A stretch of 64,000 bases of DNA from a virus (Duplodnaviria; Heunggongvirae; Uroviricota; Caudoviricetes). The stretch spans positions 1 to 64,000 of the IMG/VR virus record IMGVR_UViG_3300044807_000039. One strand, 5' to 3'. Within the stretch, counting starts at the first letter, position 1. Each line of letters begins with the position of its first letter. Made by a program: the position numbers and the translations under genes. This document shows, piece after piece, positions 12,482 to 40,009 of this stretch. A model generated the notes under the pieces. It saw only the letters and a list, made by a program, of their open reading frames with translations. It ran no database searches and was not told the DNA's origin.

Positions 12482-12669
12482 TGGATAATAAAATCACAGA
12501 AGAATTTCGTACAGTTCGCATGCTATTAAACCAGAAGAAACCTGGTATGAAGCTACGAACTAGAACATTAATTAATAGATTAGATCTAGGTAATTATAAG
12601 CAGGCGAAAATGACCATTCGGCATCTTTGGACCCAATATCAAAAAGATGTACCAAAGGATAAGTGGTAA
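12481..12669 (+). CDS. small hypothetical protein
   Basis: 62 aa. Confidence 0.35.
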   Translation: MDNKITEEFRTVRMLLNQKKPGMKLRTRTLINRLDLGNYKQAKMTIRHLWTQYQKDVPKDKW

Positions 12670-12671
12670 TA

Positions 12672-12854
12672 ATGACAAACGAAGAATTGGATAAGTTGGC
12701 CGCAACCGAGCTTTGCCCGGGGGTGACCTACATGGATCATGCTGACTCTATTGCTAGATTCAACCTTCGTGGTGTAAACTACAACGAGATTCAGCTTGCA
12801 GCCGAAAGATTGCGGGTTCTCGAAGCTCTTGACACCACCGAAGAGCTAGTATAG
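12672..12854 (+). CDS. small hypothetical protein
   Basis: 60 aa. Confidence 0.35.
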   Translation: MTNEELDKLAATELCPGVTYMDHADSIARFNLRGVNYNEIQLAAERLRVLEALDTTEELV

Positions 12855-12886
12855 GCTGATACAACATCCACCAGTTGGAGGAATAA

Positions 12887-13207
12887 ATGCTCGAAGAGGA
12901 AGCTGCTGTTGAATGTGCTAGACTGATCAAAGAATGTATGTTAGAATTCAACAGCAAGACGATTCAACGATATACACTTCTCAACAAATGGAAAAAGAAG
13001 TTTCCGGATCACCAATCATCGATTTATCCAAGATATAATGGTGAACGACCTGTAGAATCCACTGGAACGGTTGCTAGGAAACTTATCAGCAAGGCTTGCC
13101 GGAAGCTAGAGCAAGATGGTATCATTAGTAGACACGAAGGACGTTCCGACAGATACGGTTACATCGTGGTTGAGGACGTTAAAGCTTTGGTCACAATAAT
13201 TACGTAG
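12887..13207 (+). CDS. putative winged-helix DNA-binding regulator
   Basis: 'TVARKLISKACRKLEQDGIISR' wHTH-like. Confidence 0.4.
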   Translation: MLEEEAAVECARLIKECMLEFNSKTIQRYTLLNKWKKKFPDHQSSIYPRYNGERPVESTGTVARKLISKACRKLEQDGIISRHEGRSDRYGYIVVEDVKALVTIIT

Positions 13208-13229
13208 TTCGGTTATACCGGATGAGGGC

Positions 13230-13256
13230 AACGGAAACATCAGGTTCCGTTTTTAC
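13230..13256 (+). terminator. rho-independent terminator
   Basis: AACGGAAAC..GTTCCGTT + TTTTT. Confidence 0.55.
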
Positions 13257-13288
13257 TAGGGTTGGGTGGGCTCCCTAGTTTCAAGATT

Positions 13289-13362
13289 TGCGGGGTGGTG
13301 CAGTCTGGTAGCTCAGCGGGCTCATAATCCGAAGGTCGTAGGTTCGAATCCTACCCCCGCAA
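13289..13362 (+). tRNA. tRNA-Met (CAT), initiator-like sequence but 1:72 paired (T-A)
   Basis: near-identical to E. coli tRNA-fMet body: TGCGGGGTGGTGCAG..GGGCTCATAA..GGTTCGAATCC..CCCCGCA. Confidence 0.8.
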
Positions 13363-13363
13363 C

Positions 13364-13436
13364 GCCTTCTTAGTGATAACGGTAAGCACATTTCCTTGGT
13401 AAGGAAATAGAAAGGGTTCGATTCCCTTAGAAGGCT
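13364..13436 (+). tRNA. tRNA-Thr (GGT)
   Basis: acceptor GCCTTCT/AGAAGGC, anticodon TTTCC-TTGGTAA-GGAAA, T-arm AAGGG-TTCGATT-CCCTT. Confidence 0.7.
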
Positions 13437-13469
13437 CTCCATCAATTAGTAGACAAACAAGGAGTTAAC

Positions 13470-13700
13470 ATGGAAAAGGATTACTCGTTGACAATCGCCA
13501 TTGGTGCAAAGAGCAAGAAGTTTGACTCCACCACCACCGAAAGGGAAGCTATCACGATAGCTAAGATGCTCGTTCCCATTATCAAGATTGTCGCGGTCAT
13601 CAAGCGTTTCAAGCGTAAGTTGCACAGCGATAGGGCCATCATGACCATTAAGCACGTAGAGACAGACAAGGTTGTTTGGTCGAAGGTCGTTAGTTACTAA
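13470..13700 (+). CDS. small protein, possible paralogous family member
   Basis: 76 aa. Confidence 0.4.
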   Translation: MEKDYSLTIAIGAKSKKFDSTTTEREAITIAKMLVPIIKIVAVIKRFKRKLHSDRAIMTIKHVETDKVVWSKVVSY

Positions 13701-16331: not shown

Positions 16332-16405
16332 GTGCGGATAGTTTAATTGGAAAAACTTTCCCCGGCCTTTTGGGGAAAATACCTGGTTCGAATCCGGTTC
16401 CGTAC
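16332..16405 (+). tRNA. tRNA-like, possible Arg(CCT) with 8-nt anticodon loop / 7-bp stem (non-canonical)
   Basis: acceptor GTGCGGA/TCCGTAC, D GTTT/AAAC, TTTCCCC-GGCCTTTT-GGGGAAA, T-arm CTGG-TTCGAAT-CCGG. Confidence 0.35.
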
Positions 16406-16560
16406 GCGTGTTAGACGATAAAGATCGAGATGCTAAATGGTATTTTTGGAAATTCGTTCATAACCTGCTGATTCATCCGTTCCTAGCTTTTCCTTGGGAG
16501 CCAAAATGGGCACATCGGGCACATGATTGGACAGCTATAAGGTGTCCGGGCGGGGGCTAA

Positions 16561-26614: not shown

Positions 26615-28622
26615 TGTTACCCTTAGCGGTAATCTGGTCGGACAAGAAATTAAGATGGGGATTGACACAAAGTCCCTCGCTTTCCTTCAAACAATTCTCA
26701 CAGACCTATATTCAGACCCTAAATTGGCCGTTATCCGTGAGTACAGCACCAATGCTTGGGATGCACAGGTTGAAGCTGGAGTCACCAGCCCGATTGAGGT
26801 TACTACTCCAAATAGCCTTTCACCTTATTTTACGGTGAAGGATAGTGGTATTGGTTTGTCGGTAGAGGACATCCGTACGATCTACTCGCAGTACGGTGCT
26901 AGCACCAAGCGCATGACCAATACACAGACTGGTATGCTTGGCCTGGGTTGCAAGTCTGCTCTAACCTATACCAACCAATTTACAATCACAGCGGTTAAGG
27001 ATGGCATTAAGACGGCCGTTATTGTCTCTCGTGATGAGGACAACGTTGGTGCCATGACCGTTGTCGCTTCTACTAAAGTCGATGAGCCGAATGGAGTAAA
27101 GATCAGTGTTCCGATTAATCGTGGCGATCAAAACGAATTTACTAATAAAGCGAAAGAATTCTTTAGTTTTTGGAAGCCGGGTACGGTCCTCCTTAACGGC
27201 AAAGAACCAGAGCTGGTTGAGGGCAATTACATTAGTGAAAAGATTCTAATTCGTAGCAACCTGGATTATAATTCCCGGGGAAAGCATAAACTAGTTATGG
27301 GTAACGTATCCTATAACCTTTCACATGACGAGCTTTATGGAGGCGATAGGTACTCCAATAGCCGTGTAGATATTAATATTACCTATGACAGCGCTATTGT
27401 TTTCTTTGTTGATATGGGAGAAGTAGATTTTACCCCCTCCCGTGAGGAATTGCATTACACTGCTAAAACAAAGTCTCTACTTAGGAAGCTGGTTGAGAAT
27501 TTCAATAATGACCTATCGATTGCAATAATCAAGGACATTCAAGGTCAGCCTACCCATGCCGACGCTGTTGCTAGATTTTTTAGTTGGGATTCACAGGTTA
27601 ATAGCATGCCCGACCCTATTACTTTCCAGGGTGACACCATGCCACTTAACCTCAACTTTGATGAGTTCTATCGAATTTCTAGCTGGTCCAATAACATGCA
27701 TGAGCGGAAAATTAAGCGTGTTAAACTAAAGAGTATTATTTTAGATGACACCGCTTTTATTGTTACTGGCAAACCAACAGATCAGGATATCACTACTGGT
27801 CAAAAAGCAAAACTTCGTGTTTGGGCAAATGATACGCAGGGCGTTTCTAACCCTGAGTTTTACTTTGCGGAGAAGGATGAATACACTCCGTGGACCAATA
27901 GCATCAAGCATGTTAAATGGCAGGTAATTCTTGACACCAAGATCAAGCGTCAGAAAATTGAAAGCCAAAAGAATAAATATTACAGGCTTGGACAATATGG
28001 CCAGGAAGATATCGACGCCGCGAACATTAGTTCTAACAGCACTTTGCTTTGGGCTAACATTGGAGATATCCCCAAGGATCGTATGTATTCGGTTTGGCAA
28101 TGGGCGCACAGGCATGATTGCGAAATTATCATCGTAGCTAAGAATAAGCAAAAGAGTTTTTTTGCTAACTTCCCTGCGGCGAGGGTTTATACTGATTGGG
28201 CACGAGATAAGATCAAAAAGTATAACGATGGTCTCACTGCTGATCAAAAGGAAATCATTGGATTCATGGAGCATCAATCATTTAATTCTATGACCTTCTT
28301 TGATAATCCTCGGGTTGAAGATCCAGAGCTTCGTAGAATTGCCGGGATTGCCAAGCTAATTAGGATAGACGCTTCTATTAATACCAGTGACGTAGCGAAG
28401 CTTAAGCGTGAATTTCACGAATACCGAGCAATGGAAAGATCATTGACCTCGGATCATACCCAATGGGTAATTATGGATCCAACGAATCCGGCTGAAATCG
28501 TTGATAAGTACAAGCTTTTAGGGTATATTGGACGTAACTACCATCACGAACTGCTAGAAGACCTAATCATCTACATCAATGCAGCATACCAAAAGGAGAC
28601 CAATGCAGTATACACTGTTTAA
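26595..28622 (+). CDS. GHKL/HATPase_c-domain protein, rIIA-like
   Basis: Bergerat motifs 'EYSTNAWDA', 'DSGIGLS', 'GMLGLGCKSA'; 675 aa. Confidence 0.5.
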   Translation: MLPTKADVTLSGNLVGQEIKMGIDTKSLAFLQTILTDLYSDPKLAVIREYSTNAWDAQVEAGVTSPIEVTTPNSLSPYFTVKDSGIGLSVEDIRTIYSQYGASTKRMTNTQTGMLGLGCKSALTYTNQFTITAVKDGIKTAVIVSRDEDNVGAMTVVASTKVDEPNGVKISVPINRGDQNEFTNKAKEFFSFWKPGTVLLNGKEPELVEGNYISEKILIRSNLDYNSRGKHKLVMGNVSYNLSHDELYGGDRYSNSRVDINITYDSAIVFFVDMGEVDFTPSREELHYTAKTKSLLRKLVENFNNDLSIAIIKDIQGQPTHADAVARFFSWDSQVNSMPDPITFQGDTMPLNLNFDEFYRISSWSNNMHERKIKRVKLKSIILDDTAFIVTGKPTDQDITTGQKAKLRVWANDTQGVSNPEFYFAEKDEYTPWTNSIKHVKWQVILDTKIKRQKIESQKNKYYRLGQYGQEDIDAANISSNSTLLWANIGDIPKDRMYSVWQWAHRHDCEIIIVAKNKQKSFFANFPAARVYTDWARDKIKKYNDGLTADQKEIIGFMEHQSFNSMTFFDNPRVEDPELRRIAGIAKLIRIDASINTSDVAKLKREFHEYRAMERSLTSDHTQWVIMDPTNPAEIVDKYKLLGYIGRNYHHELLEDLIIYINAAYQKETNAVYTV

Positions 28623-29466
28623 CAATGGTACCGATGCAAACATCACCGTTTTTATTAACGGCGAAATGCTTTCGGCGACCAATCAGCATCCTTCGTGGAC
28701 AAAAATTGTCGCGGGGGCAGTTTCAGGAGATGAATCAATTGCCAAGCTCTTCGATCCGGGAGCAACTGCGGCGGAACATTTCGAAAAGCTTTCGGACCGT
28801 GTAAGTATCGCTGGAGGCCAAATTTATTTCGATGGCGATGCAGTAGATGGCGCTCTGGCAGATCAGATCCTTCGCTTCATTGAAGACGATGTAGAGGACT
28901 GGCAGCCGCTCGTTAATTTCTACGAGAAGGTTATGACCAATTTTGAGGCGCACACTCGTGAGCAGCTTTTCCGCTGGTTGCAGAAGCAGCAAATCACTAT
29001 CACCGAAGATGGTGATTTCCTTGCATATAAGGGTGTTCAGACCATCACCGAAAATGGCGAGACCAAGTACGTTTCGGTTAATCACGGTAAGGCAATTGTA
29101 GACGGAGTGGTACACAACGGTGCAATTCCAAACTACCTTGGCGCTGTTGTCTCTATGCCTCGCAGCGAGGTTCAGCACGATCCAGGCGTTGGTTGCGCAA
29201 GCGGTCTTCATGCTGGTACCTGGAAATATGCTTCTGGCTGGGCGCGGGGTGCTACACTTCGTGTGAAGATCAATCCAAGGAACGTTGTTTCGGTTCCTAC
29301 CGATTGTGATTTTGCGAAGCTTCGTGTTTCCGAATACGAGGTTGTAGACGTCACCGAGCAGGAAAACCTTGAAGCTGTGTACCAAACTCATGGTGACCGT
29401 GCCTATGACTCCTACCATGAGGATGAGGACACCTGGGGCGATAATGAATGGGACGACGAAGACTGA
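28606..29466 (+). CDS. hypothetical protein with acidic C-terminus (rIIB-like?)
   Basis: follows rIIA-like gene; C-term DEDTWGDNEWDDED. Confidence 0.3.
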   Translation, partial: QYTLFNNGTDANITVFINGEMLSATNQHPSWTKIVAGAVSGDESIAKLFDPGATAAEHFEKLSDRVSIAGGQIYFDGDAVDGALADQILRFIEDDVEDWQPLVNFYEKVMTNFEAHTREQLFRWLQKQQITITEDGDFLAYKGVQTITENGETKYVSVNHGKAIVDGVVHNGAIPNYLGAVVSMPRSEVQHDPGVGCASGLHAGTWKYASGWARGATLRVKINPRNVVSVPTDCDFAKLRVSEYEVVDVTEQENLEAVYQTHGDRAYDSYHEDEDTWGDNEWDDED

Positions 29467-29485
29467 TCTAAGAAGCTAGACGTGA

Positions 29486-29514
29486 AGGGGCTCTGCTTAA
29501 TAGCGGCCCCTTTG
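29486..29514 (+). terminator. rho-independent terminator
   Basis: GGGGC..GCCCC + TTTG. Confidence 0.55.
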
Positions 29515-29527
29515 CTATAATATTTAT

Positions 29528-30040
29528 ATGGAAAATAAAAGAGTTCCCAAGCCGGGGGATATGGGATTTAGCACTATTGATGGAATGCTAGGTTTCTGGA
29601 TAGGACTAGGACAATTTCTTAATGGTGACGCTAGTAAATGGACGCATGTATTTATTGTCCTGGAGGATAATAAGGTCATGGAGGCAATGCCGAAAGGCGC
29701 ACAGATTGTCTCTATTGATGATTATAATAGTAAGGCAATATTTATTGACTGGGGTCTTACCGATAAAGAGCGCAAGGACGTTGTCGATGCCGCCATTCGA
29801 TTAGAGGGCACACCGTATAATTTCTTAGATTATCTGGCACTTGCTTTGGCAAGGTTTAAAATTAGACCCAAGTGGCTGGTAAAGTATATTAAAAATAGCG
29901 ACAAGTTGATCTGCTCCGCACTAGCGGATATGGTATACAATCGTGCTGGTGTACAGCTGTTCACCGATGGTAGGCTGTGGCACGACGTTACGCCTGGTGA
30001 TCTACTGAACAGGTACCTAGAGCGAGATTGGTTCGAGTAA
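29528..30040 (+). CDS. hypothetical protein (possible Cys/His peptidase fold)
   Basis: 'LICSALADMVY'..'LWHDV'. Confidence 0.3.
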   Translation: MENKRVPKPGDMGFSTIDGMLGFWIGLGQFLNGDASKWTHVFIVLEDNKVMEAMPKGAQIVSIDDYNSKAIFIDWGLTDKERKDVVDAAIRLEGTPYNFLDYLALALARFKIRPKWLVKYIKNSDKLICSALADMVYNRAGVQLFTDGRLWHDVTPGDLLNRYLERDWFE

Positions 30041-30108
30041 GGTCTTGACAAACGGCTGGTGGTCGCACTAGGCTTGCTAGCATCAGCCAACAAGCCCTGG
30101 AGGACATC

Positions 30109-30480
30109 ATGCCAGCTATCATCAGGAACGTTACGGAAGCCGAGCGCGACGCTCTGTTCGCTCGGTACGCCCAGGTCAAGCCTGCATTTGATGCCCTCAA
30201 GGACGAGATGGACCAGCTTAAGCAGCAATTGAAGCCGTACTTTGCGGAGCGCGGGGAAAAGATCACCTCGACAGATGGCATTACCTTGCGAATGGATGGT
30301 CGAACCATGCTGAACCAGGAAAAGTTCTTGGTGCGGGTAGGGGCTAGAATCTTTGCAACGGTATCCAAGCGCGTCGCGGTTGCCGCTTTGATTAAGGCAG
30401 CAGTCATCAAGGGTAAGATCAAGCAGGTAGATGTTGACGCTTGCATGGAGCCTACCGAGAACTGGTTTAAGATTCTTTAA
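30109..30480 (+). CDS. hypothetical protein
   Basis: 123 aa. Confidence 0.45.
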   Translation: MPAIIRNVTEAERDALFARYAQVKPAFDALKDEMDQLKQQLKPYFAERGEKITSTDGITLRMDGRTMLNQEKFLVRVGARIFATVSKRVAVAALIKAAVIKGKIKQVDVDACMEPTENWFKIL

Positions 30481-30488
30481 GGAGAGGC

Positions 30489-30746
30489 ATGAGTGAACAT
30501 TCCGAGCAATTTATTGACATAATGATAAGAGCCCTTGGTGATTCAGGTAAAGAGGCTGCAAAGTGCCATATTATTGCGCAGATCAAGGCTTACCAGGATA
30601 TCTTTCCAGATGACCGAGGGCTTACAATTCGCTCAATTCACGGTCGGACCTCAATTTCCTTGGCCACCGTGGGCGTACTTGTTACCGAGCTAGCTAACGA
30701 CAATATGCTAGTCGAATTTCCGGTTGGTCATTACAAGGCTACGTGA
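30489..30746 (+). CDS. hypothetical protein
   Basis: 85 aa. Confidence 0.45.
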   Translation: MSEHSEQFIDIMIRALGDSGKEAAKCHIIAQIKAYQDIFPDDRGLTIRSIHGRTSISLATVGVLVTELANDNMLVEFPVGHYKAT

Positions 30747-30866
30747 GTATGCTAAAATAGAGTAAGTTGTCGAAAGGAGGCTTGCTCTACATGGATCTAT
30801 TCCTTTATATTCTTGCGGCAATTGCTTTGGTCGCACTGATTCTTTATTTTCTAAGAAGGGCTTAAA

Positions 30867-31241
30867 GTGGAAATGTTTGTGCTAAGTGATGGCTTTAGTA
30901 TTAAGGTGCACGACGAAGGTCGTTGTATTGGCGAAGTCTGTCCTATTCACCGACCTACCGACCATCACATGCGCGAATGGCCAATGGTTTACCGTGGAGA
31001 TCGGGGCATATTCGAAAGATTGTGCCCCGATCATGGTACCGGTCATCCAGATCCAGACGACCAAGTTGCTCTGAAATTTATTCTAGGTGAGTCTGATGGA
31101 ATTCATGGATGCGATGGTTGCTGCAATCCTGAGGGGAAAGAAGCTTTCTTTGCTTCCCTCGAAGCTAATGAAGAGCTTGCGCCCAAGGTCAAACCTACCT
31201 ATACTTACGTAGACTTTGACACAGAGCTACCGACCCTGTAG
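30867..31241 (+). CDS. Cys/His-rich hypothetical protein
   Basis: 124 aa. Confidence 0.45.
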   Translation: MEMFVLSDGFSIKVHDEGRCIGEVCPIHRPTDHHMREWPMVYRGDRGIFERLCPDHGTGHPDPDDQVALKFILGESDGIHGCDGCCNPEGKEAFFASLEANEELAPKVKPTYTYVDFDTELPTL

Positions 31242-31259
31242 AATTGTTTTCAATGGGAG

Positions 31260-31478
31260 GTGAATCCATTGACTACAGCACAAGGTGCCCCAAACAAGCA
31301 GCACGCAGTTCTCAAGTCTGGTATTAAAGTTAAGCCAGGCAAAAAGCAGACATCTGTACCGAAGAAGGCTCCAAACGAGAAGCCTCCTACAACCGGAAAG
31401 CCAAGCACTAATAAGCCTTCCGATCCAGGAAAAACTCCAAGTAAGCCAGCGGTAAAACCAGTAAAGAAAAAGAAATAA
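31260..31478 (+). CDS. Lys/Pro-rich basic small protein (start uncertain)
   Basis: 72 aa. Confidence 0.3.
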   Translation: MNPLTTAQGAPNKQHAVLKSGIKVKPGKKQTSVPKKAPNEKPPTTGKPSTNKPSDPGKTPSKPAVKPVKKKK

Positions 31479-31515
31479 ATTGTTGCTAGGAGTTCTCCGG
31501 AACTTCCTAGCCTTT

Positions 31516-31584
31516 GGGGCAAGCGTAGGATGTGTCATAGAGTCTCATAAGCTCTAATGTTAGGGTTCAAATCCCTTTGCCCCA
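31516..31584 (+). tRNA. tRNA with CAT anticodon (elongator Met or Ile2), reduced D-arm
   Basis: acceptor GGGGCAA/TTGCCCC, anticodon AGAGT-CTCATAA-GCTCT, T-arm AGGG-TTCAAAT-CCCT. Confidence 0.5.
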
Positions 31585-31595
31585 ACGTTAATTAA

Positions 31596-31679
31596 GCTCT
31601 AGTGGCCGGAATGGCAGACGCGCTGCACTCAAAATGCAGTATCCGAAAGGGTGTGTGGGTTCGACTCCCACCTAGAGTA
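31596..31679 (+). tRNA. tRNA-Leu (CAA), class II
   Basis: acceptor GCTCTAG/CTAGAGT, anticodon CTGCA-CTCAAAA-TGCAG, long variable arm, T-arm GTGGG-TTCGACT-CCCAC. Confidence 0.75.
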
Positions 31680-31686
31680 CGTGAAA

Positions 31687-32082
31687 ATGATGACCAAGGC
31701 TGCAACATGGCGCGCTGGTTGTGGTTGCTGGGATTGTTGCGGGGGTAGAACAAGAAAGCAACAGAGAAGGTTAGAAGAAAAGCAATGGCGAACCGAATAC
31801 AATAAGGAAGAAGCTTTGACAACAAATTACGTAGAAGAAGTTTATGCCAAGCTAACTAAGGAGCTTCCAGAGCTGGACTATGATCTTGGAATGCTGTATG
31901 CTTTGCTTGTGTTCGTTAAAGGTAAGGATGTCACGCTAGAGGATGTACATGACGCTTGGTCTATTTGGCGAAATGAGACCAATCAGACCCACAAGTCACT
32001 CATTCCTTTTGATGAGCTTACCGAGGAAGTGCAGCTGCTTGACGAAAAGTATGCGGCTGGAATTCGGGCAGCAGCGGAGTAA
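31687..32082 (+). CDS. hypothetical protein
   Basis: 131 aa. Confidence 0.45.
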   Translation: MMTKAATWRAGCGCWDCCGGRTRKQQRRLEEKQWRTEYNKEEALTTNYVEEVYAKLTKELPELDYDLGMLYALLVFVKGKDVTLEDVHDAWSIWRNETNQTHKSLIPFDELTEEVQLLDEKYAAGIRAAAE

Positions 32083-32084
32083 GG

Positions 32085-32228
32085 ATGGCTGGTTTAAAAT
32101 GTCGCTGTGGACACTACTGGACAAACCATAACGAAAAAGATCCAAAAAATAGAAAGATTAAAAACAAGGTTTGGTGTGTAGTCTGTCCACGAAGCTGTTC
32201 GGATAGAGATAGTATAAAGAAAAAATAG
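32085..32228 (+). CDS. mini zinc-ribbon protein (47 aa)
   Basis: MAGLKCRCGHYW...VWCVVCPRSC. Confidence 0.4.
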   Translation: MAGLKCRCGHYWTNHNEKDPKNRKIKNKVWCVVCPRSCSDRDSIKKK

Positions 32229-32359
32229 GTCTTTACGAAGGTGTGCAATGCGTGCTAAGCTACTAGGGCGAGCTACAAAGTGGGGTTATCGCACTCCATA
32301 CCGTAACAACAAGAAGCGCATGCGTAACATCGAAAAGAAACAGTGGCGAAAGGATTACA

Positions 32360-32524
32360 ATGTCTCTTGAGCGTTGCAGCTGTAAGCATATGTGGATGGC
32401 TCACCAACGAATCAATCCTCTACTCAAAAGGCTAAAGCCAACGCACGTTTGGTGTCCTCAATGTAGGAAACCGTGTGACGATAAGGATGTTCCTAAGAGT
32501 CTCCGAAAGTCCTTGATTTACTAG
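32360..32524 (+). CDS. mini zinc-ribbon protein (54 aa), paralog of 32085
   Basis: MSLERCSCKHMW...VWCPQCRKPC. Confidence 0.4.
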   Translation: MSLERCSCKHMWMAHQRINPLLKRLKPTHVWCPQCRKPCDDKDVPKSLRKSLIY

Positions 32525-32715
32525 AATTGCTTTAGGGTGGTTACAAGGTGACTTCCTCATAAAGGAACCTTCCGTCCCCGGCGTATGTGGCTTAAGTCCC
32601 CGGCGTGACAAAACAGTGCGGGCTAAATTAAATTTGCTGATCTTGCATACTTTGAAGCAATAAGTAGCGTTTGACCATCGGAGTGGGAGCTACGTTTTAG
32701 GTGTTCCGCAGCTTT

Positions 32716-32791
32716 GGGAGCGTGCGCTATCTGGCACGGCGGCCAAACTTAAAATTTGGTGTTTTTGCGGGTTCGATCCCCGTCGCTCCTA
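32716..32791 (+). tRNA. class-I tRNA with anticodon TAA (Leu UUA codon), 7-nt variable loop, discriminator A
   Basis: acceptor GGGAGCG/CGCTCCT, D CGCT/GGCG, anticodon CCAAA-CTTAAAA-TTTGG, T-arm GCGGG-TTCGATC-CCCGT. Confidence 0.6.
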
Positions 32792-32806
32792 CGTTATATT
32801 TAATAA

Positions 32807-32877
32807 GCCCTTTTGGCCGATCGGTTAGGCGCTACTCTGCAAAAGTAGAGAAGTCGGTTCGATTCCGACAAGGGGCT
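32807..32877 (+). tRNA. tRNA-Cys (GCA)
   Basis: acceptor GCCCTTT/AAGGGGC, anticodon CTACT-CTGCAAA-AGTAG, T-arm GTCGG-TTCGATT-CCGAC. Confidence 0.75.
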
Positions 32878-32909
32878 CTTTCATTCAACCAGTAAAGCGG
32901 GAGTAGCTT

Positions 32910-33122
32910 ATGACCAACAGTGAATGGGCGTACGGTTCGGGAAGAAGAGGCACTCCCAAACCTCCTATGGGATCGGGAAAAAAGATGGGCAAGTGTCCAG
33001 AATGCAAACAGGACGTAGAAATTTATATCGATAGTTCCATTGCTCAACATAAGGTTTTTAAGCTTGATAAAAAGGGCAAGAAAACCTCTGCTTGGAGCTA
33101 TTGTCCGCGAAAGAAGAAGTAG
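32910..33122 (+). CDS. zinc-ribbon small protein
   Basis: 'CPECKQ...YCPRKKK'. Confidence 0.45.
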   Translation: MTNSEWAYGSGRRGTPKPPMGSGKKMGKCPECKQDVEIYIDSSIAQHKVFKLDKKGKKTSAWSYCPRKKK

Positions 33123-33124
33123 CC

Positions 33125-33460
33125 ATGCAATATCAGCTGACCGTAGGCGATGCACCGACCAACACCGAGGGCGATAGATTATATACCTACAAGATCATTT
33201 TGGGTGAGGAACTAGCCAAGCTTAAGCCAGTAATTCAAAGGCGATGGATTAGGTCAAAAATTGAGGCAGAGTACGGTGCACCAATAAAGAATCCCAACCA
33301 GAAGCGCTACTTCTATGAAACATATTTTGCTAAAACAGAGTGCGTAGGAAAGACTCCGGATAATCTTCCCGTTTGGGAAATTGTTCTAGTTCGGCCATTC
33401 TTAGGGAATCAATCCGCCAACCCAGATCCATTCGTACTTCCCAAGATACCCTATTTTTAG
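33125..33460 (+). CDS. hypothetical protein
   Basis: 111 aa. Confidence 0.45.
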   Translation: MQYQLTVGDAPTNTEGDRLYTYKIILGEELAKLKPVIQRRWIRSKIEAEYGAPIKNPNQKRYFYETYFAKTECVGKTPDNLPVWEIVLVRPFLGNQSANPDPFVLPKIPYF

Positions 33461-33468
33461 GAGTAATA

Positions 33469-33996
33469 ATGCTTTTCCCCTACAGAAACCCCCGATATTT
33501 TTCTAGACGCACCCAACGACGCTTCTGGTCTTTCCGCACCATCTTCAAGTGGAATAGGGAACGTAGGATCTATGGTGTTAGCGAATTTGATTGTTTTAGC
33601 TTCGATTCCTATTTGACCTATGTTTTAGCTAATGGCCTTCACGAATTGAAGAAATCAAAACATGGCGTACCGATGGCCTTCGTTGAAGGGGCAGATCTTA
33701 CAGAAAAAGATGTCGCAGCTTGGAACAAGGTTCTTGGACAGGCTTGCGAGGACGCTGCTTGGCTGGTAAGCTACCAGGACAGGAGCAGCGAGATTTACGA
33801 CGAACACATGGGAGACGTTGAACATTCGTTTGAAAAGATCCCCGGTCGTACATCTTCTAGAATGATTAGTACGGCTACCGATGAACAAGCTCAGGCTTGG
33901 CTTGAGGCAGAACGCGAGCTTGAGCATGAGCAGGATAGGCGTAAGAATCGACTGCTGGAATTTGTTAAGGAGCACTACTTTTCATTATGGGATTAA
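33469..33996 (+). CDS. hypothetical protein
   Basis: 175 aa. Confidence 0.4.
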   Translation: MLFPYRNPRYFSRRTQRRFWSFRTIFKWNRERRIYGVSEFDCFSFDSYLTYVLANGLHELKKSKHGVPMAFVEGADLTEKDVAAWNKVLGQACEDAAWLVSYQDRSSEIYDEHMGDVEHSFEKIPGRTSSRMISTATDEQAQAWLEAERELEHEQDRRKNRLLEFVKEHYFSLWD

Positions 33997-34125
33997 AAGA
34001 ACGCCTTGCCAAACGTAGGTATGAAAAAGCTAGAGATGACGCCTTGGTTCGTGCTAGCAACGGCGAACATCTTCCACGCAAGGAACGAGAAGAGCTAGAC
34101 CTTCCCGATTGGACCGGCTAAGGGG

Positions 34126-34154
34126 TTGACAAGCCTCTAGCGATGTAGTAAAGT
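34126..34154 (+). promoter_or_regulatory. consensus promoter TTGACA-N17-TAAAGT
   Basis: TTGACA 34126-31, TAAAGT 34149-54. Confidence 0.55.
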
Positions 34155-34160
34155 AGTACT

Positions 34161-34300
34161 TGTAAGGCAAGAACGCGGTACGTGCCAGAATGATCGGCGG
34201 GCAAGATAATAACCGGGTACTATGGCATGAAGGTCTGTATGCTAATGCGTGCGACCCATGTACGTATTCAAGTAGGTAAGAATCCTACCCCGCGTTCGCC
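34161..34300 (+). ncRNA. candidate structured ncRNA: long terminal stem with bulge closing a domain containing T-arm-like hairpin GTAGG-TAAGAAT-CCTAC
   Basis: TGTAAGGCAAGAACGCGG pairs CCGCGTTCGCCTTACA; transcript start set by promoter; no ORF. Confidence 0.35.
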
Positions 34301-34539
34301 TTACATTTAAATATGGGGGATAAGTGTTAAAGGTTGCACGCTGCTTTTGCAAGGCAGAAGATACGGATCGTTACCGTAATTCTCCACGCGGCGAGTAGTA
34401 ACTGGACCTTAGGAATAGATACTACTTGCTAGCTATAAAATTACAGACCCGTTGTGCCTCTGCAAGTACGTTTGCGCGCGTTGGAAGATCCGGCCGGTAA
34501 TTCCAAACCTTTGGGCGGTAGGTGGTCAACCGCTTTTAA

Positions 34540-34613
34540 CTGCCCGTAGGAAAATTTGGTAATCCGCTTCCCTTGGGAGGAAGAGACTGTCAGTTCAAAT
34601 CTGACCGGGCAGA
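34540..34613 (+). tRNA. tRNA-Pro (TGG)
   Basis: acceptor CTGCCCG/CGGGCAG, anticodon CTTCC-CTTGGGA-GGAAG, T-arm GTCAG-TTCAAAT-CTGAC. Confidence 0.8.
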
Positions 34614-34634
34614 CGTAAAAGTGAAGGATATGCA

Positions 34635-35069
34635 TTGGGATATACAGGACAACAAAAAAGAGATTATCAAAACGCATGGATGCAAGAACGTAGATCGGCT
34701 TGGATAATAAGTCAGGGCGGTAAATGTATTGATTGTAGTTCGACAGAAAATTTAGAGATTGACCATGTAGACCCCAAAACAAAAGAGTTTCAACCGACCT
34801 CTCTTTGGTCTAGAAGAAAAGAAATTAGAGATCTAGAGCTAGCCAAATGTGTTGTTAGATGCCATGACTGTCATTTGTTAAAAACAATTAAAGGGCAAGA
34901 GACTTCAAAGTTCAAAGAAGATCATCACCTCTCCTATTTAACTCAGGATCTCGTAGATGAGATTCGTAATGAATACAGTACGACCAAAATATCAATAAGG
35001 GCATTAGCTTTGAAATTTAATTCAAAGCGCTCTACAATTCATGATATAATAAAATTTAAAAGTTGGTAG
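34635..35069 (+). CDS. HNH endonuclease
   Basis: 'CIDCSS..EIDHVDP...CHDCH' HNH motif; inside tRNA array. Confidence 0.75.
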   Translation: MGYTGQQKRDYQNAWMQERRSAWIISQGGKCIDCSSTENLEIDHVDPKTKEFQPTSLWSRRKEIRDLELAKCVVRCHDCHLLKTIKGQETSKFKEDHHLSYLTQDLVDEIRNEYSTTKISIRALALKFNSKRSTIHDIIKFKSW

Positions 35070-35409: not shown

Positions 35410-35434
35410 CAGGTTCGATTTGCAAGGAGAGAAT

Positions 35435-35557
35435 ATGACTTGCCCACATAAGGAAACCGAAGTGATCCGAAGTAAAGGCAAGTTGTATATAGTTTGCAAA
35501 GCATGTAAGCAGACGCTAGGAAGATTCCCAGAGCCTAGAAAACCTCCAGGCAATTAA
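35435..35557 (+). CDS. mini zinc-ribbon protein (40 aa), 'MTC' family
   Basis: MTCPHKETEV...IVCKACKQ. Confidence 0.4.
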   Translation: MTCPHKETEVIRSKGKLYIVCKACKQTLGRFPEPRKPPGN

Positions 35558-37448: not shown

Positions 37449-38000
37449 ATGGATAAAATTAAAAACCTCGTAACAATAAGACACGGATCACATCTGTATA
37501 ATTTAGCTCGTCCAAATTCAGATCTTGATCTCTATACGGTATACACCTTTCTTAATAGACGCTATAGGCCAAAGAAACAGGTCGTGCAGGAAATTGAGGG
37601 TGAAACAGATAGCGTCAAAATTAGCGATGTTAAATTCACCGAGCAAATACACAAGGGAGTTCCACAAGCCCTGGAAGCTCTGTTTGCTGAAAAAGAATTT
37701 TGGTTAGACGCTGATCCCAACTGGGAAGATTTACGCTTGCATTATCGCGATCAAATCAATATTTATACGGTGCTGGATACCTACAAGCGTACAATTCGTA
37801 ATTTTTTTGAGCTAGATGACATTAAAAAGAACAGGCATGGTTTTAGATTACTACTTAATGCAGACAGCATGATCCAGGACGGCTATTTTAATCCAACGCT
37901 CTCCGATGATATGACTGCCGAGATTACAAAATGGGCAAACCAATCGTATGAAAAGCGATTAGAAACCTATCATGACCTACTATGGAGAGTGTTCCGATGA
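37449..38000 (+). CDS. nucleotidyltransferase-fold protein
   Basis: 'GSHLYNLARPNSDLDLY' NTase motif (GS..D.D). Confidence 0.5.
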   Translation: MDKIKNLVTIRHGSHLYNLARPNSDLDLYTVYTFLNRRYRPKKQVVQEIEGETDSVKISDVKFTEQIHKGVPQALEALFAEKEFWLDADPNWEDLRLHYRDQINIYTVLDTYKRTIRNFFELDDIKKNRHGFRLLLNADSMIQDGYFNPTLSDDMTAEITKWANQSYEKRLETYHDLLWRVFR

Positions 38001-39076
38001 AAATAGATCGTGTTTTTGACACAAAGAAATTAGATAAATATATAACCGAAGGATATATTTCCGCGCGCAGGCATCCCCATCTTCCGTTGACCATTTACAA
38101 TTACACTCCTAAAACTCAGTGGGAGAGGAAATGGGATGAGGTTACTAAGCGGTGTCGCGGACTTATTGTAGATTGGCGCGGGGAGGTTGTAGGAAACTGC
38201 TTAACTAAGTTCTTTAATTACAACGAACCCAATGCAGAAGACGTAAGGACTGACGGACCAGTACAGGTTACCGATAAGCTTGACGGTAGCTATTTAGCCG
38301 TTTGTATTTATGAAGGTAACATTGTCACTGCAACTCGTGGTAGCTTTGAAAGTGATCAAGCAAAAGTAGCAGCCCAAATAATTCGTTCTACTACCGAATA
38401 CCAGGATGCATTACGATTCCTGTGCGCAGGTCATAGCACTGCAATCTTTGAGGTTATCTATCCAGAAAACCGTATTGTTTTAGATTACGGCCCAATGCGA
38501 GATATCGTTCTTATTGGTACAATTGCAAACTTTGAACTAGCTGACGGTAAGCAATTATGGACTCCAGCAATAGGATTGAATTGGCCGGGGCAGATTGTAG
38601 AGCATTTTGACTGCAATAGCTTTACCGAAGCAATGGCAATGCCACCCAGAGACAACGCAGAAGGTATTGTAATCTATTTTGAAAATACCGGTGATCGTTT
38701 GAAGATGAAGCAAGATCGCTACATAGAGTTACACAAGCTTATCTTTGATCTTACTCCTAAGCGTATCTGGGAACGTCGTAGCGATGGCGAAAGCCTGTGT
38801 GGTATCCTTCAAGGTCTACCGGATGAGTTCCGAGATGCGGTAGAATTGTTCGACGCAGAGCTATCGTTGCAGGTAGAGCAAGTTCTACAAGAAGTTGACG
38901 CAGCGATGGCTAGAGTGTATGCTAGGCTTCCTGATCCATACACCCGTAAGGATTTTGCGATGGCTGTGCGTAACGAACGTTACTCACACTTGATGTTTCA
39001 AGCACTTGACGAAGATCATGCAGGGCTGCTAGAGTCTGCATGGAAGCTAGTTAAGCCAACCAAAGACTCACTATAA
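37997..39076 (+). CDS. ATP-dependent RNA ligase (Rnl-family)
   Basis: motif I 'DKLDGS' (KxDG), motif IV 'EGIVIY', motif V 'LKMKQD'; adjacent to Pnkp. Confidence 0.6.
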   Translation: MKIDRVFDTKKLDKYITEGYISARRHPHLPLTIYNYTPKTQWERKWDEVTKRCRGLIVDWRGEVVGNCLTKFFNYNEPNAEDVRTDGPVQVTDKLDGSYLAVCIYEGNIVTATRGSFESDQAKVAAQIIRSTTEYQDALRFLCAGHSTAIFEVIYPENRIVLDYGPMRDIVLIGTIANFELADGKQLWTPAIGLNWPGQIVEHFDCNSFTEAMAMPPRDNAEGIVIYFENTGDRLKMKQDRYIELHKLIFDLTPKRIWERRSDGESLCGILQGLPDEFRDAVELFDAELSLQVEQVLQEVDAAMARVYARLPDPYTRKDFAMAVRNERYSHLMFQALDEDHAGLLESAWKLVKPTKDSL

Positions 39077-39085
39077 GGAGCGCTC

Positions 39086-40009
39086 ATGCCCCCTAAGCTT
39101 ACTATTTATCGCGGCCTGCCTGCCTCCGGAAAATCCACCCTTGCTAAGAAGAAGGTTCAGGAGCTTCTGGAGCAGGGCATCAAGGCCATTAACATAGATC
39201 GGGATATCTTTCGGCTGGTTAACGGCTTCGGGATCGAGCCCACTGGTGAATTTGAAAATGTGATTACCGCTGCACAGCGTGCGATCATGAAGCAAGGATT
39301 CCTTAAGGGTTGGCACGTCATTGAGAGTTCCACCAACCTGCGCGTAAGCTACATTAAGGAAATGATCGAGGTTGCAGAGTTTTATGGGGTAGAGGTCGAG
39401 ATCATCGATGTCAATGTCCCTATTGAAACCTGCATCGTTCGAGACGTGACGCGTGCAAACCAGGGTGGTCACTATGTAGGTGAGGAGGCAATTCGAGGAA
39501 TTGCTAAGCGATTCATGCCAAAGGGCAAGTTTCCGGCCGTTCCGAAAGCCAATCCACCTATCGAGGCAGAACCGTATATTCCTGACATCACCCTGCCGAC
39601 TGCCATTATTGTAGATATTGACGGAACTGTTGCGGAAATGGAAGGCCGTAGTCCTTACGACTACACCTTGGTTTCTACTGACAAGCCGAAGCAGTGGGTA
39701 ATTGATCGCGTTCGAGAAGCTAATATGCTTGGGCACAAGATCATCTTCATGTCTGGTCGAGAGGCTACGTGCGTGGAGGACACCCATGCATGGATCACCA
39801 AGTACATTAGTATCGAGCATTTTGAGCTGTACATGCGCGCAGCAGGTGACACTAAGCGAATGGACGCGATTGTCAAGATCGAGCTTTTCGATAAGTACCT
39901 GCGCAGCTTCTACAACGTTCTGTACTGCATTGATGATCGTACGCAGGTTATCAACGCATACCGAGCAATGGGGTTGAACGTTATGGACGTTGCAGGTAAC
40001 CCTTTCTAG
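39086..40009 (+). CDS. pnkp: polynucleotide 5'-kinase/3'-phosphatase (T4 Pnk-like)
   Basis: P-loop 'GLPASGKST'; HAD 'VDIDGTVA', 'GRSPYD', 'IDDRTQV' matching T4 Pnk. Confidence 0.85.
   Translation: MPPKLTIYRGLPASGKSTLAKKKVQELLEQGIKAINIDRDIFRLVNGFGIEPTGEFENVITAAQRAIMKQGFLKGWHVIESSTNLRVSYIKEMIEVAEFYGVEVEIIDVNVPIETCIVRDVTRANQGGHYVGEEAIRGIAKRFMPKGKFPAVPKANPPIEAEPYIPDITLPTAIIVDIDGTVAEMEGRSPYDYTLVSTDKPKQWVIDRVREANMLGHKIIFMSGREATCVEDTHAWITKYISIEHFELYMRAAGDTKRMDAIVKIELFDKYLRSFYNVLYCIDDRTQVINAYRAMGLNVMDVAGNPF

What the first reader, a model, noticed from the sequence alone, without database searches (positions are those of the whole stretch)
34126..34535. Promoter-driven structured RNA upstream of tRNA-Pro with long terminal stem and T-arm-like hairpin
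A consensus promoter (34126-34154) starts a transcript whose 5' end (GTACTTGTAAGGCAAGAACGCGG) pairs with CCGCGTTCGCCTTACA about 110 nt downstream. This forms a bulged terminal stem closing a domain that contains GTAGG-TAAGAAT-CCTAC and palindromic GTACGT elements. A second T-arm-like hairpin TACGG-ATCGTTA-CCGTA and a terminator hairpin precede tRNA-Pro. No ORF is present. The overall architecture (terminal stem plus internal modules) is Y-RNA-like, or a riboregulator or processing signal for the downstream tRNAs.
Basis: seen in the sequence. Interest (0 to 1): 0.55.

Follow-up and report, generated by a model that had tools for sequence, protein, structure and literature searches.

The report
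tRNA-like small RNA in phage tRNA array
The flagged region holds a real, conserved, non-coding structured RNA that sits in a "tRNA slot" of a tRNA-rich phage genome and looks like a tRNA without an anticodon. It belongs to no catalogued RNA family, its function is unknown, and the evidence does not make it a Y RNA.

Summary
The promoter (34126-34154) and the bulged 8+8 bp terminal stem enclosing a 111-nt domain with the GTAGG/TAAGAAT/CCTAC hairpin are real (element 34161-34305; MFE z = -4.7). Its "second T-arm-like hairpin" is that tRNA's T arm. The "terminator" is doubtful.

The window is a phage-like genome with 30 tRNAs, an Rsr/Ro60 gene and RNA-repair genes. In its closest relatives (RNA ligase 68-74% identical) the same promoter drives tRNA-Ala through a 10-50 nt leader with no element. 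A likely homologous ~120-128-nt RNA lies elsewhere in five distinct relatives, directly after tRNA-Pro or after an HNH gene inserted there. Loop and linker blocks are shared (AAUGAU, AAGAUAAUAA, GGU[U/A]AGAAUCC), and every helix has compensatory changes.

The architecture is tRNA-like but has no anticodon. No Rfam family matches at E<=10.

The Y-RNA idea is not supported as membership. The copy lacks the GNCGAA motif and lies 9.6 kb from rsr, and a canonical YrlA-like array sits directly upstream of rsr.

Best reading: a tRNA-derived, tRNA-like small RNA cut out of the tRNA transcript, with an unknown partner. Homology between the window copy and its relatives is probable, not proven.

The parts
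34126..34154 (+). Sigma-70-type promoter: -35 TTGACA at 34126-34131 and -10 TAAAGT at 34149-34154. The predicted start is near 34160-34162, at the first base of the closing stem.
   Evidence: 10/12 match. (extended motif: 5 sites against 0.12 expected). (the same promoter precedes tRNA-Ala in L002, L005/6, L008, L009 and L229).
34161..34305 (+). The structured tRNA-like RNA element (145 nt). It has a closing stem, a D-like hairpin, an A-rich linker, a long variable arm and a T-like arm.
   Evidence: MFE -59.9, z -4.7. (covariance-model hits to five relatives). (89.7% of cells paired, against 30-43% when partners are slid). No Rfam match.
34161..34178 (+). 5' strand of the closing stem. The outer helix is UGUAAGGC (34161-34168), the bulge is AA (34169-34170) and the inner helix is GAACGCGG (34171-34178). 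The outer strand resembles the short tRNA-Ala leader of relatives (ACUCAG[U/C]AAGGCAAU).
   Evidence: Leader comparison.
34183..34199 (+). D-arm-like hairpin: a 6-bp stem with one bulged A and a 4-nt loop AUGA (34190-34193). The loop is conserved in relatives and the stem covaries.
   Evidence: (helix 2: 5 of 7 pairs changed on both sides).
34203..34212 (+). Conserved single-stranded A-rich block AAGAUAAUAA. It is identical in L004. The variants are AAGAGAAUAA, AAGAUAACAA and AAGAGAAAAC.
34215..34269 (+). Long variable arm, a 55-nt irregular hairpin. Its sequence is not conserved but its pairing is. It includes a shared GUAC motif near the base.
   Evidence: (helices 3-5: 17 of 21 pairs changed on both sides). 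(covariation among the relatives alone).
34272..34288 (+). T-arm-like hairpin GUAGG-UAAGAAU-CCUAC. Relatives have GCGG-UUAGAAU-CCGU, one base away from the canonical GGUUCGAAUCC.
   Evidence: (helix 6).
34290..34305 (+). 3' strand of the closing stem, CCGCGUUC-GCCUUACA.
It starts 9 nt after the element.
   Evidence: ARAGORN. (Rfam tRNA 37.6 bits, E 3e-6).
34481..34506 (+). Conserved hairpin UUGGAAGAUCCGGCCGGUAAUUCCAA in the tRNA-Ala/tRNA-Pro spacer.
   Evidence: compensatory changes in L002, L006 and L008.
34515..34537 (+). Its status is doubtful.
   Evidence: Not called. Seen in the fold. Not conserved in that form.
34540..34614 (+). tRNA-Pro(UGG).
   Evidence: 62.9 bits.

Best explanation
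The element is a gene for a tRNA-derived, tRNA-like small RNA that occupies a 'tRNA slot' in the phage's tRNA array.

In the window it is the first product of a transcript that starts at the conserved promoter and continues into tRNA-Ala and tRNA-Pro. RNase P cleavage at the 5' end of tRNA-Ala would release it as a ~150-nt RNA whose 5' and 3' ends are locked in a 16-bp bulged helix.

It folds as follows:
- an acceptor-like closing stem stacked on a near-canonical T arm;
- 'UA' at the position of nucleotides 8-9;
- a D-like hairpin with a 6-bp stem and a 4-nt loop;
- an A-rich single-stranded block where the anticodon arm would be;
- an oversized variable arm.

With no anticodon it cannot decode. 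It most likely acts in trans as a tRNA mimic that binds a tRNA-recognising protein through its conserved loops. That partner could be a phage RNA-repair or quality-control factor or a host factor.

Shown here: the promoter and its conservation, the fold, the probable homologues with covarying helices, the tRNA-slot position, the lack of an anticodon and the absence from Rfam. Inferred: transcription, processing by tRNA enzymes, stability and the trans-acting mimic role.
For: - Fold stability: z = -4.7.
- Homologues: a single-sequence covariance model of the window element finds L004:4-128 (20 bits, E about 1e-3) and L002:5578-5702 (18 bits) as its top non-self hits. With filters off it finds the syntenic spots in L006 and L008. 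A joint model finds six distinct members at 74-115 bits and nothing else in about 725 kb.
- Shared blocks occur in the same order: GUA, AAUGAU, AAGAUAAUAA, GUAC, GGU[U/A]AGAAUCC, CAUYYAA.
- Structure counts: 89.7% of cells are paired, against 30-43% for slid partners. 26 pairs changed on both sides, against 3-9.
- Covariation is also seen within the relatives alone.
- tRNA-slot position: the element begins 2 nt after the tRNA-Pro 3' end in L002 and L092. In the window it ends 9 nt before tRNA-Ala.
- It was retained in the window after relocation, although its neighbours in the relatives (44-aa and 126-aa ORFs) have no homologue in the window.
- ARAGORN at lowered threshold with introns allowed draws four of five relatives as full-length 7/5 cloverleaves in one register.
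- The joint model's next-best hits include a class II tRNA-Ser (L170:9330-9418).
- Context is rich in tRNA and RNA-repair functions: 30 tRNAs, Rsr, an RlaP-like protein, Rnl1 and PNKP.
Against: - Homology of the window copy to the relatives is only moderately supported. The reciprocal model built from the relatives scores it 8.4 bits (E 1.8, rank 9 in the window). Sequence-only global alignment gives z of about 2 for the two best relatives (L002, L004), about 1.5 for two others, and none for L008 (z -0.24).
- There are only six distinct sequences, in effect two clades. The alignment used for pair counts was fitted to the model's structure.
- The relatives' own folds are not unusually stable (z +0.2 to -1.2).
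- Standard tRNA detectors reject the element.
- The window's outer stem strand looks derived from the ancestral tRNA-Ala leader, so part of the long stem is lineage-specific.
- One related lineage (L009/L010) lacks the element in the region seen.
- There is no expression or binding data of any kind.
Confidence: 0.45

Rival explanations
1. It is a non-canonical second-class Y RNA. The phage Rsr (22958-24559) binds the terminal bulged helix or the A-rich block, and the tRNA-like part recruits an effector, as Yrn1/YrlA tether Rsr to PNPase.
For: - Rsr is encoded in the window and in relatives that carry the element.
- The architecture, a 5'/3' closing stem plus D-like and T-like arms in tRNA order, recalls what PMC4201824 describes for D. 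radiodurans Yrn1.
- In L008 and L092 the conserved block reads GGCCGAAGAUAAC, which contains GNCGAAG. It shares 10 nt with Y-like module 1 of the window (GAGCCGAAGAUAG at 22077) and resembles GAGUCGAAGAUAU in L229.
- Bacteria commonly have two or more Y RNAs, some of which escaped bioinformatic detection.
Against: - There is no Rfam YrlA or Y_RNA hit at E<=10.
- The GNCGAAN0-1G motif is absent from the window copy and from 3 of 5 relatives. Where it is present it is internal, not near the 5' end.
- The element lies 9.6 kb from rsr, against the published limit of 4 kb.
- A YrlA-like array with the motif sits next to rsr here and in relatives.
- The closing stem is only 6 bp in relatives.
Confidence: 0.15
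2. It is a cis-acting processing or stability element of the polycistronic tRNA/mRNA transcript. In this view a tRNA-like 't-element' is cut by RNase P or RNase Z to separate tRNAs from neighbouring mRNAs. In the window, a 5'-terminal helix would also protect the primary transcript. It would have no trans function.
For: - In relatives it lies exactly between tRNA-Pro (or the HNH gene) and the Shine-Dalgarno sequence of a small ORF.
- In the window the extended 16-bp helix starts at the predicted transcription start.
- The stacked acceptor and T arm form the shape that tRNA-processing enzymes recognise.
- Plant mitochondrial t-elements are a precedent (PMC1920247, listed).
Against: - The conserved loop and linker sequences (AAUGAU, AAGAUAAUAA) are not needed for recognition of shape by RNase P or RNase Z.
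- The window copy is followed by a tRNA that already supplies an RNase P site.
- Four other lineages manage the same promoter-to-tRNA-Ala junction with unrelated 10-50 nt leaders.
Confidence: 0.2
3. It is a decaying tRNA pseudogene, possibly a former class II tRNA. It would be a non-functional relic whose long stem in the window arose by chance.
For: - It has a tRNA-like frame without an anticodon.
- Standard detectors do not recognise it.
- It is absent from the L009 lineage.
- These genomes carry other odd tRNA-like pieces.
Against: - Compensatory changes occur in every helix while the loops stay constant.
- It survived a relocation that lost its neighbours.
- The closing helix was rebuilt and lengthened in the new context.
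- The leader sequences around it diverge completely over the same evolutionary distance.
Confidence: 0.1
4. It is a small mobile inverted-repeat element (MITE-like) or a DNA-level signal, such as an internal promoter or a homing site, and not an RNA.
For: - It has 16-nt terminal inverted repeats.
- It sits at a different place in the window than in relatives.
- A weak promoter-like match, GTGCCA-17-GATAAT, lies at 34182-34210.
- An HNH gene lies next to it in L006 and L008.
Against: - There is a single copy per genome.
- There are no target-site duplications.
- Relatives have only 6-bp ends.
- Internal hairpins covary, which selection at the DNA level does not predict.
- The -10-like GATAAT is not kept in L008/L092 (GATAAC) or L002 (GAGAAA).
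Confidence: 0.04

Closest known systems
Bacterial and phage Y RNAs (YrlA, Rfam RF02553; D. radiodurans Yrn1), the partners of Rsr/Ro60
   Same: Both are non-coding RNAs of about 100-150 nt with their 5' and 3' ends in a stem and an internal tRNA-like module. Both are found in genomes that encode Rsr and RNA-repair enzymes. YrlA-like genes are known in actinophages (PMC4201824).
   Different: The element gives no covariance-model match. The window copy lacks the GNCGAAN0-1G motif. Its arms are in tRNA order with open ends, not YrlA's permuted order with a closed acceptor hairpin. It lies 9.6 kb from rsr. The genome already has a canonical array next to rsr.
Class II tRNAs and tRNA-Sec-type tRNAs
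   Same: The element has an acceptor-like stem stacked on a T arm with G53, U54, U55, R57, A58 and C61. It has UA at positions 8-9 and a long extra arm between the 'anticodon' region and the T arm. It occupies a slot in a tandem tRNA array.
   Different: There is no 7-nt anticodon loop, U33 is not conserved, and the putative anticodon varies (AAU, AAC, AAA). The T loop has A in place of C56, and the D loop has no GG. The extra arm is 45-55 nt. ARAGORN (default settings) and Rfam tRNA and tRNA-Sec models reject it.
Phage T4 stable RNAs C and D ('species 1 and 2') in the T4 tRNA gene cluster (cited from my own knowledge, not retrieved here)
   Same: They are small stable RNAs of about 120-140 nt, encoded among phage tRNA genes, co-transcribed and matured with them, partly tRNA-like, and still of unknown function.
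   Different: The phage lineage and host are unrelated. Any resemblance is one of kind, not of homology.
Plant mitochondrial t-elements and other tRNA-like processing signals (PMC1920247)
   Same: They are tRNA-like folds placed between genes in polycistronic transcripts, where tRNA-processing enzymes can define RNA ends.
   Different: Those elements are defined by mapped cleavage sites. Here no ends are mapped, and the conserved loop sequences go beyond what mimicry of shape requires.

Membership tests
YrlA / bacterial Y RNA (RF02553; criteria of Chen et al. 2014, PMC4201824) | Matches the YrlA covariance model | tested here: not met
   No YrlA or Y_RNA hit at E<=10 on 33900-34700 or on relative L004:1-140. 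By contrast 22567-22666 scores 29.4 bits.
YrlA / bacterial Y RNA | GNCGAAN0-1G motif near the 5' end (the proposed Rsr contact) | tested here: not met
   Absent from the window element and from L002, L004 and L006. GCCGAAG is present in L008 and L092, but about 30 nt from the 5' end.
YrlA / bacterial Y RNA | Encoded within about 4 kb of rsr on the same strand | tested here: not met
   It is on the same strand, but the element starts 9.6 kb after the end of rsr (24559 to 34161).
YrlA / bacterial Y RNA | tRNA-like module ordered T arm, closed acceptor hairpin, D arm | tested here: not met
   The order here is D-like arm, long arm, T-like arm, with the ends open.
YrlA / bacterial Y RNA | Binds Rsr and depends on it for accumulation | not testable with these tools
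   This needs a pull-down or gel-shift assay with the phage Rsr.
tRNA (RF00005) | Detected by tRNA models | tested here: not met
   ARAGORN with default settings and Rfam find none at E<=10. Only lowered thresholds with introns allowed give calls, and their anticodons are inconsistent.
tRNA (RF00005) | 7-bp acceptor stem stacked on a 5-bp T stem, with a T loop U54-N-N-R57-A58 | tested here: inconclusive
   Relatives can be drawn as 7/5 with one U.U and one G.A pair and the loop UUAGAAU. The window has 16 bp, one unpaired C, a 5-bp T stem and the loop UAAGAAU.
tRNA (RF00005) | 7-nt anticodon loop with U33 and a conserved anticodon | tested here: not met
   The block is AAGA[U/G]AA[U/C/A]A[A/C]. 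The U33 position varies and the 'anticodon' would be AAU, AAC or AAA.
tmRNA | tRNA-Ala-like ends (G3:U70) and a tag reading frame; detected by ARAGORN | tested here: not met
   ARAGORN -m finds none even at 60-70% thresholds. There is no G3:U70 and no conserved ORF.
MITE / small mobile inverted-repeat element | Multiple dispersed copies with terminal inverted repeats and target-site duplications | tested here: not met
   There is one copy per genome and no flanking duplication.
Intrinsic terminator (the hairpin at 34515-34537) | GC-rich stem followed by a run of at least 5 T in 8 | tested here: not met
   The consensus scan does not report it. It has only 4 T, and tRNA-Pro starts 6 nt after the stem.

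The most novel reading that the evidence does not exclude
The element defines a new class of phage-encoded tRNA mimic that works with the phage's RNA quality-control and repair set (Rsr, Y-like RNAs, an RlaP-like protein, a Thg1-like protein (relatives), Rnl1, PNKP). It could be a second, non-canonical Rsr partner that uses the AAGAUAA/GCCGAAGAUA block. Or it could be a decoy for a host tRNA-targeting defence or tRNA-binding enzyme.
Probability: 0.18. Interest if true: 0.75.

Novelty: new variant of a known kind. Interest (0 to 1): 0.5.

Why it matters
tRNA-rich phages are now read as carrying their own translation and RNA-repair toolkits to resist host tRNA-targeting defences. Non-decoding tRNA-like RNAs embedded in their tRNA arrays are almost unstudied, apart from the decades-old unexplained T4 RNAs C and D and the YrlA family.

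This element adds an uncatalogued, structurally conserved tRNA mimic in a clade that also carries Rsr, a multi-module Y-RNA array and healing-and-sealing enzymes. It gives a concrete RNA, with a concrete candidate protein (the phage Rsr), for a binding test.

If it proves to be only a processing signal or a relic, the finding is of local interest only.

Tried and rejected
- **Rfam.** All 4227 models were run at the gathering threshold on the window, and at E<=10 on 33900-34700 and on L004:1-140. Only the two tRNAs matched.
- **Cultured phages.** blastn 'distant' of the region and of a relative's element against 50,697 phage records found only tRNA or chance hits.
- **IMG/VR protein searches.** Scans with the flanking 175-aa protein and with Rsr found no relatives.
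- **Exact and degenerate DNA patterns.**
  - One search found 0 hits.
  - One search found 80 hits in IMG/VR, all noise by model R2.
  - One search found 6 IMG/VR hits and one search found 50 GTDB genome hits, about the number I estimated for chance. None passed model R3.
- **Metagenome scan with an RNA ligase alignment.** It added two close loci: L092, and L093, which repeats L002.
- **MAFFT alignment of the window copy with relatives.** It misaligned the 3' half twice, so model-based alignments were used instead.
- **The reciprocal model from relatives only (R2).** It does not significantly detect the window copy (8.4 bits). I kept this as a caveat.
- **A disrupted tRNA or tmRNA.** ARAGORN with introns and lowered thresholds gives only poor, mutually inconsistent calls in the window.
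- **A small ORF.** The 29-aa frame 34190-34279 is not conserved: L006 and L008 have AAUUGAU in place of the AUG, and the downstream frames differ.
- **A -10 promoter element in AAGATAATAA.** The critical final T is lost in L008, L092 and L002.
- **A riboswitch for the downstream ORF.** The downstream gene differs: a 44-aa membrane ORF in most relatives, another ORF in L004, and tRNA-Ala in the window.

Full report
**What the window is.** All genes run on the + strand. ARAGORN finds 30 tRNA genes between 8.3 and 35.7 kb. Pfam identifies:
- an Rsr/Ro60 protein (TROVE + vWA, 22958-24559);
- a T4 Rnl1-type RNA ligase (37982-39076);
- a polynucleotide kinase-phosphatase (39086-40009);
- an RlaP-like nucleotidyltransferase (37449-38000).

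No cultured phage is close at the DNA level. By Rsr protein the nearest named phages are the ~130-kb, tRNA-rich Streptomyces cluster BE phages such as Moab, at 49-57% identity. The source contig is about 132 kb. The window is therefore a tRNA-rich, RNA-repair-equipped, actinophage-like genome.

**Checking the observation.** The sigma-70-like site TTGACA-17-TAAAGT is at 34126-34154. It is part of a longer motif, GGTTGACA-N17-TAnAGTAGTA. That motif occurs without mismatch only here and at 22032, and five times with up to 3 mismatches against 0.12 expected.

The stretch 34155-34314 folds with an MFE of -59.9 kcal/mol, z = -4.70, and none of 200 shuffles folds as well. Its parts are:
- a closing helix of 8 + 8 bp with an AA bulge (34161-34178 with 34290-34305);
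- a small hairpin with loop AUGA;
- a 13-nt unpaired linker;
- a 55-nt irregular hairpin;
- the hairpin GUAGG-UAAGAAU-CCUAC, one base from the closing stem.

There is no meaningful ORF.

Two parts of the description are wrong. The 'terminator' (34515-34537) is not called by the scan, has only four U, and abuts tRNA-Pro.

**Relatives.** The flanking 175-aa protein is unique. The RNA ligase, however, has homologues at 68-74% identity on large contigs. I fetched the DNA around them.

In four distinct lineages in those loci, and a fifth reached through Rsr (below), the same promoter sits in front of tRNA-Ala. The leaders are only about 10-50 nt long and unrelated to each other: L002, L005/6, L008 and L229, and L009. 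So the 145-nt element is not at this position in any relative.

The short leader of L005/6 and L229 (ACUCAG[U/C]AAGGCAAU) matches the window's first bases (ACUUGUAAGGCAA). This suggests the outer 5' strand of the window's long stem is recycled leader sequence.

**Homologues elsewhere.** A covariance model built from the window element alone (R1) gave L004:4-128 (20 bits, E about 1e-3) and L002:5578-5702 (18 bits) as its best non-self hits. With filters off it also found L006:5274-5401 and L008:2834-2952 (about 10 bits) at the syntenic place.

These are ~120-128-nt non-coding stretches. They lie directly after tRNA-Pro with a 2-nt spacer in L002 and L092. In L006 and L008 they lie after an HNH endonuclease gene inserted behind tRNA-Pro, and in most relatives they precede a 44-aa ORF. 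The window's HNH gene (34635-35069) is 61-65% identical to that HNH. The 44-aa and 126-aa neighbours have no homologue in the window.

The shared blocks, in the same order, are:
- GUA after the closing stem;
- a hairpin with loop AAUGAU;
- unpaired AAGAUAAUAA, 10 of 10 identical in L004;
- GUAC at the base of a long variable hairpin;
- GGU[U/A]AGAAUCC in a T-like arm;
- the closing strand followed by CAUYYAA.

A joint model (R3) finds six distinct members at 74-115 bits and nothing else significant in about 725 kb. It finds nothing in 56 pattern-selected loci from IMG/VR and GTDB genomes.

**Structure support.** On the six-sequence alignment, 89.7% of cells form standard pairs, against 30-43% when partners are slid. 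26 of 37 pairs have changes on both sides, against 3-9 in the slid controls, and no shuffle out of 500 reaches the observed values. Covariation in the variable arm is already visible among the four relatives alone.

The caveats are real:
- the alignment was fitted to the model;
- there are effectively two clades;
- the model built from the relatives alone scores the window copy at only 8.4 bits;
- sequence-only alignment gives z of about 2 for the two best relatives (L002, L004), about 1.5 for two others, and none for L008 (z -0.24);
- the relatives' folds are not unusually stable, as is also typical of tRNAs.

I put homology of the window copy at roughly 85%.

**What it resembles.** The frame is tRNA-like:
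- an acceptor-like stem followed by UA at positions 8-9;
- a D-like hairpin;
- a T arm one substitution from the canonical GGUUCGAAUCC;
- T-stem and closing-stem strands adjacent;
- a long extra arm, as in class II tRNAs.

ARAGORN with introns allowed and a 70% threshold draws four of five relatives as full-length 7/5 cloverleaves in one register. The joint model's weak next-best hits include a tRNA-Ser.

It is not a decoding tRNA. The would-be anticodon region is the A-rich block, in which the U33 position and the 'anticodon' both vary (AAU, AAC, AAA). Standard detectors reject it. It is not a tmRNA either.

**The Y-RNA question.** However, the published criteria (PMC4201824) are not met, as set out in the membership table.

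The genome also has an obvious Y-RNA locus. A twin of the promoter at 22034 drives 22066-22680, immediately upstream of rsr. That stretch has GNCGAAN0-1G motifs at 22077, 22238 and 22338 (0.29 expected). It has two T-arm-plus-closed-acceptor modules. It gives a sub-threshold Rfam YrlA match (29.4 bits, E 3e-4 locally) at 22567-22666. Related arrays are found in Moab and in L228-L230.

One lead stays open. In L008 and L092 the conserved block reads GGCCGAAGAUAAC, which contains GNCGAAG, and it shares 10 nt with Y-like module 1. The block could therefore be a degenerate version of the same protein-binding motif. I give the Y-RNA reading about 0.15.

**Mechanism, as far as it can be argued.** Transcription from 34126-34154 would start at the first base of the closing stem. 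RNase P at the 5' end of tRNA-Ala (34315) would free a ~150-nt RNA with both ends in a 16-bp helix. In relatives the same RNA would be freed by 3' processing of tRNA-Pro.

The element kept its loops and all its helices while moving to a new context and losing its former neighbours. That argues for a function of the RNA itself, not regulation of a particular downstream gene. It also argues against a relic.

The most likely role is a non-decoding tRNA mimic that binds a tRNA-recognising protein. A pure processing or stability role is the main alternative (0.2).

**Verdict.** The element is a genuine structured RNA of an uncatalogued family. It is a new variant within the known kind 'tRNA-like small RNAs of phages', not a demonstrated Y RNA. 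It is of moderate interest, and it offers a clear experimental handle: Rsr binding, RNase P processing and expression.

Noticed in passing
window 22034-22680 (+), upstream of rsr (22958-24559): A promoter at 22034 (a twin of the one at 34126) drives an approximately 600-nt non-coding array of four Y-RNA-like modules. GNCGAAN0-1G motifs lie at 22077, 22238 and 22338, and a near-motif lies at 22560. T-arm plus closed acceptor hairpins lie at 22377-22413 and 22594-22620. Rfam YrlA scores 29.4 bits (below the gathering score of 69) at 22567-22666. Related arrays occur in L228-L230 and in Streptomyces phage Moab.
   Followed up: partly
window 22465-22548 (+): An unannotated class II tRNA-Ser(UGA)-like gene lies inside the Y-RNA array. 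It has a perfect 7-bp acceptor stem, a 7-nt anticodon loop and an odd T arm. ARAGORN calls it only at an 80% threshold, and Rfam does not call it. It is conserved in L229 and L230.
   Followed up: partly
window 34481-34506 (+): The tRNA-Ala/tRNA-Pro spacer contains a conserved hairpin, UUGGAAGAUCCGGCCGGUAAUUCCAA, with compensatory changes in L002, L006 and L008. A second, less conserved hairpin follows it.
   Followed up: partly
L002:7172-7250 and L006:6776-6855; window slot 35411-35557: Relatives carry another unrecognised tRNA-like module between tRNA-Gln(CUG) and tRNA-Gln(UUG). Its T arm, GUAGG-UUCAAAU-CCUAC, has the same stem as the T-like arm of the window element. In the window this slot appears to hold a small ORF instead (read by eye from the sequence; not checked with the ORF listing or translate).
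   Followed up: no
window 16332-16407 (+): ARAGORN reports a tRNA with an 8-nt anticodon loop and a four-base anticodon (cctt). Rfam tRNA scores it 41.1 bits. It may be a frameshift-suppressor-type tRNA.
   Followed up: no
window 34635-35069 (+): An HNH-like endonuclease ORF with no Pfam hit lies directly after tRNA-Pro. It is 61-65% identical to the ORFs that separate tRNA-Pro from the element in L006 and L008. L002 and L092 lack it, which suggests a mobile insertion.
   Followed up: partly
window 37449-40009 (+); L228-L230 about 12600-13500: The window has an RNA-repair set of an RlaP-like nucleotidyltransferase, Rnl1-type ligase and PNKP. Relatives additionally show a Thg1-like (tRNA 5'-end repair) gene downstream of rsr. 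The window ORF 25922-26614 is probably its counterpart, but this was not checked.
   Followed up: no
window 9511, 11627, 22034, 34126, 46190 (+): There is a family of strong sigma-70-like promoters, (G)TTGACA-N17-TAnA(G/A)T. Most sit directly in front of tRNA or non-coding RNA units.
   Followed up: partly
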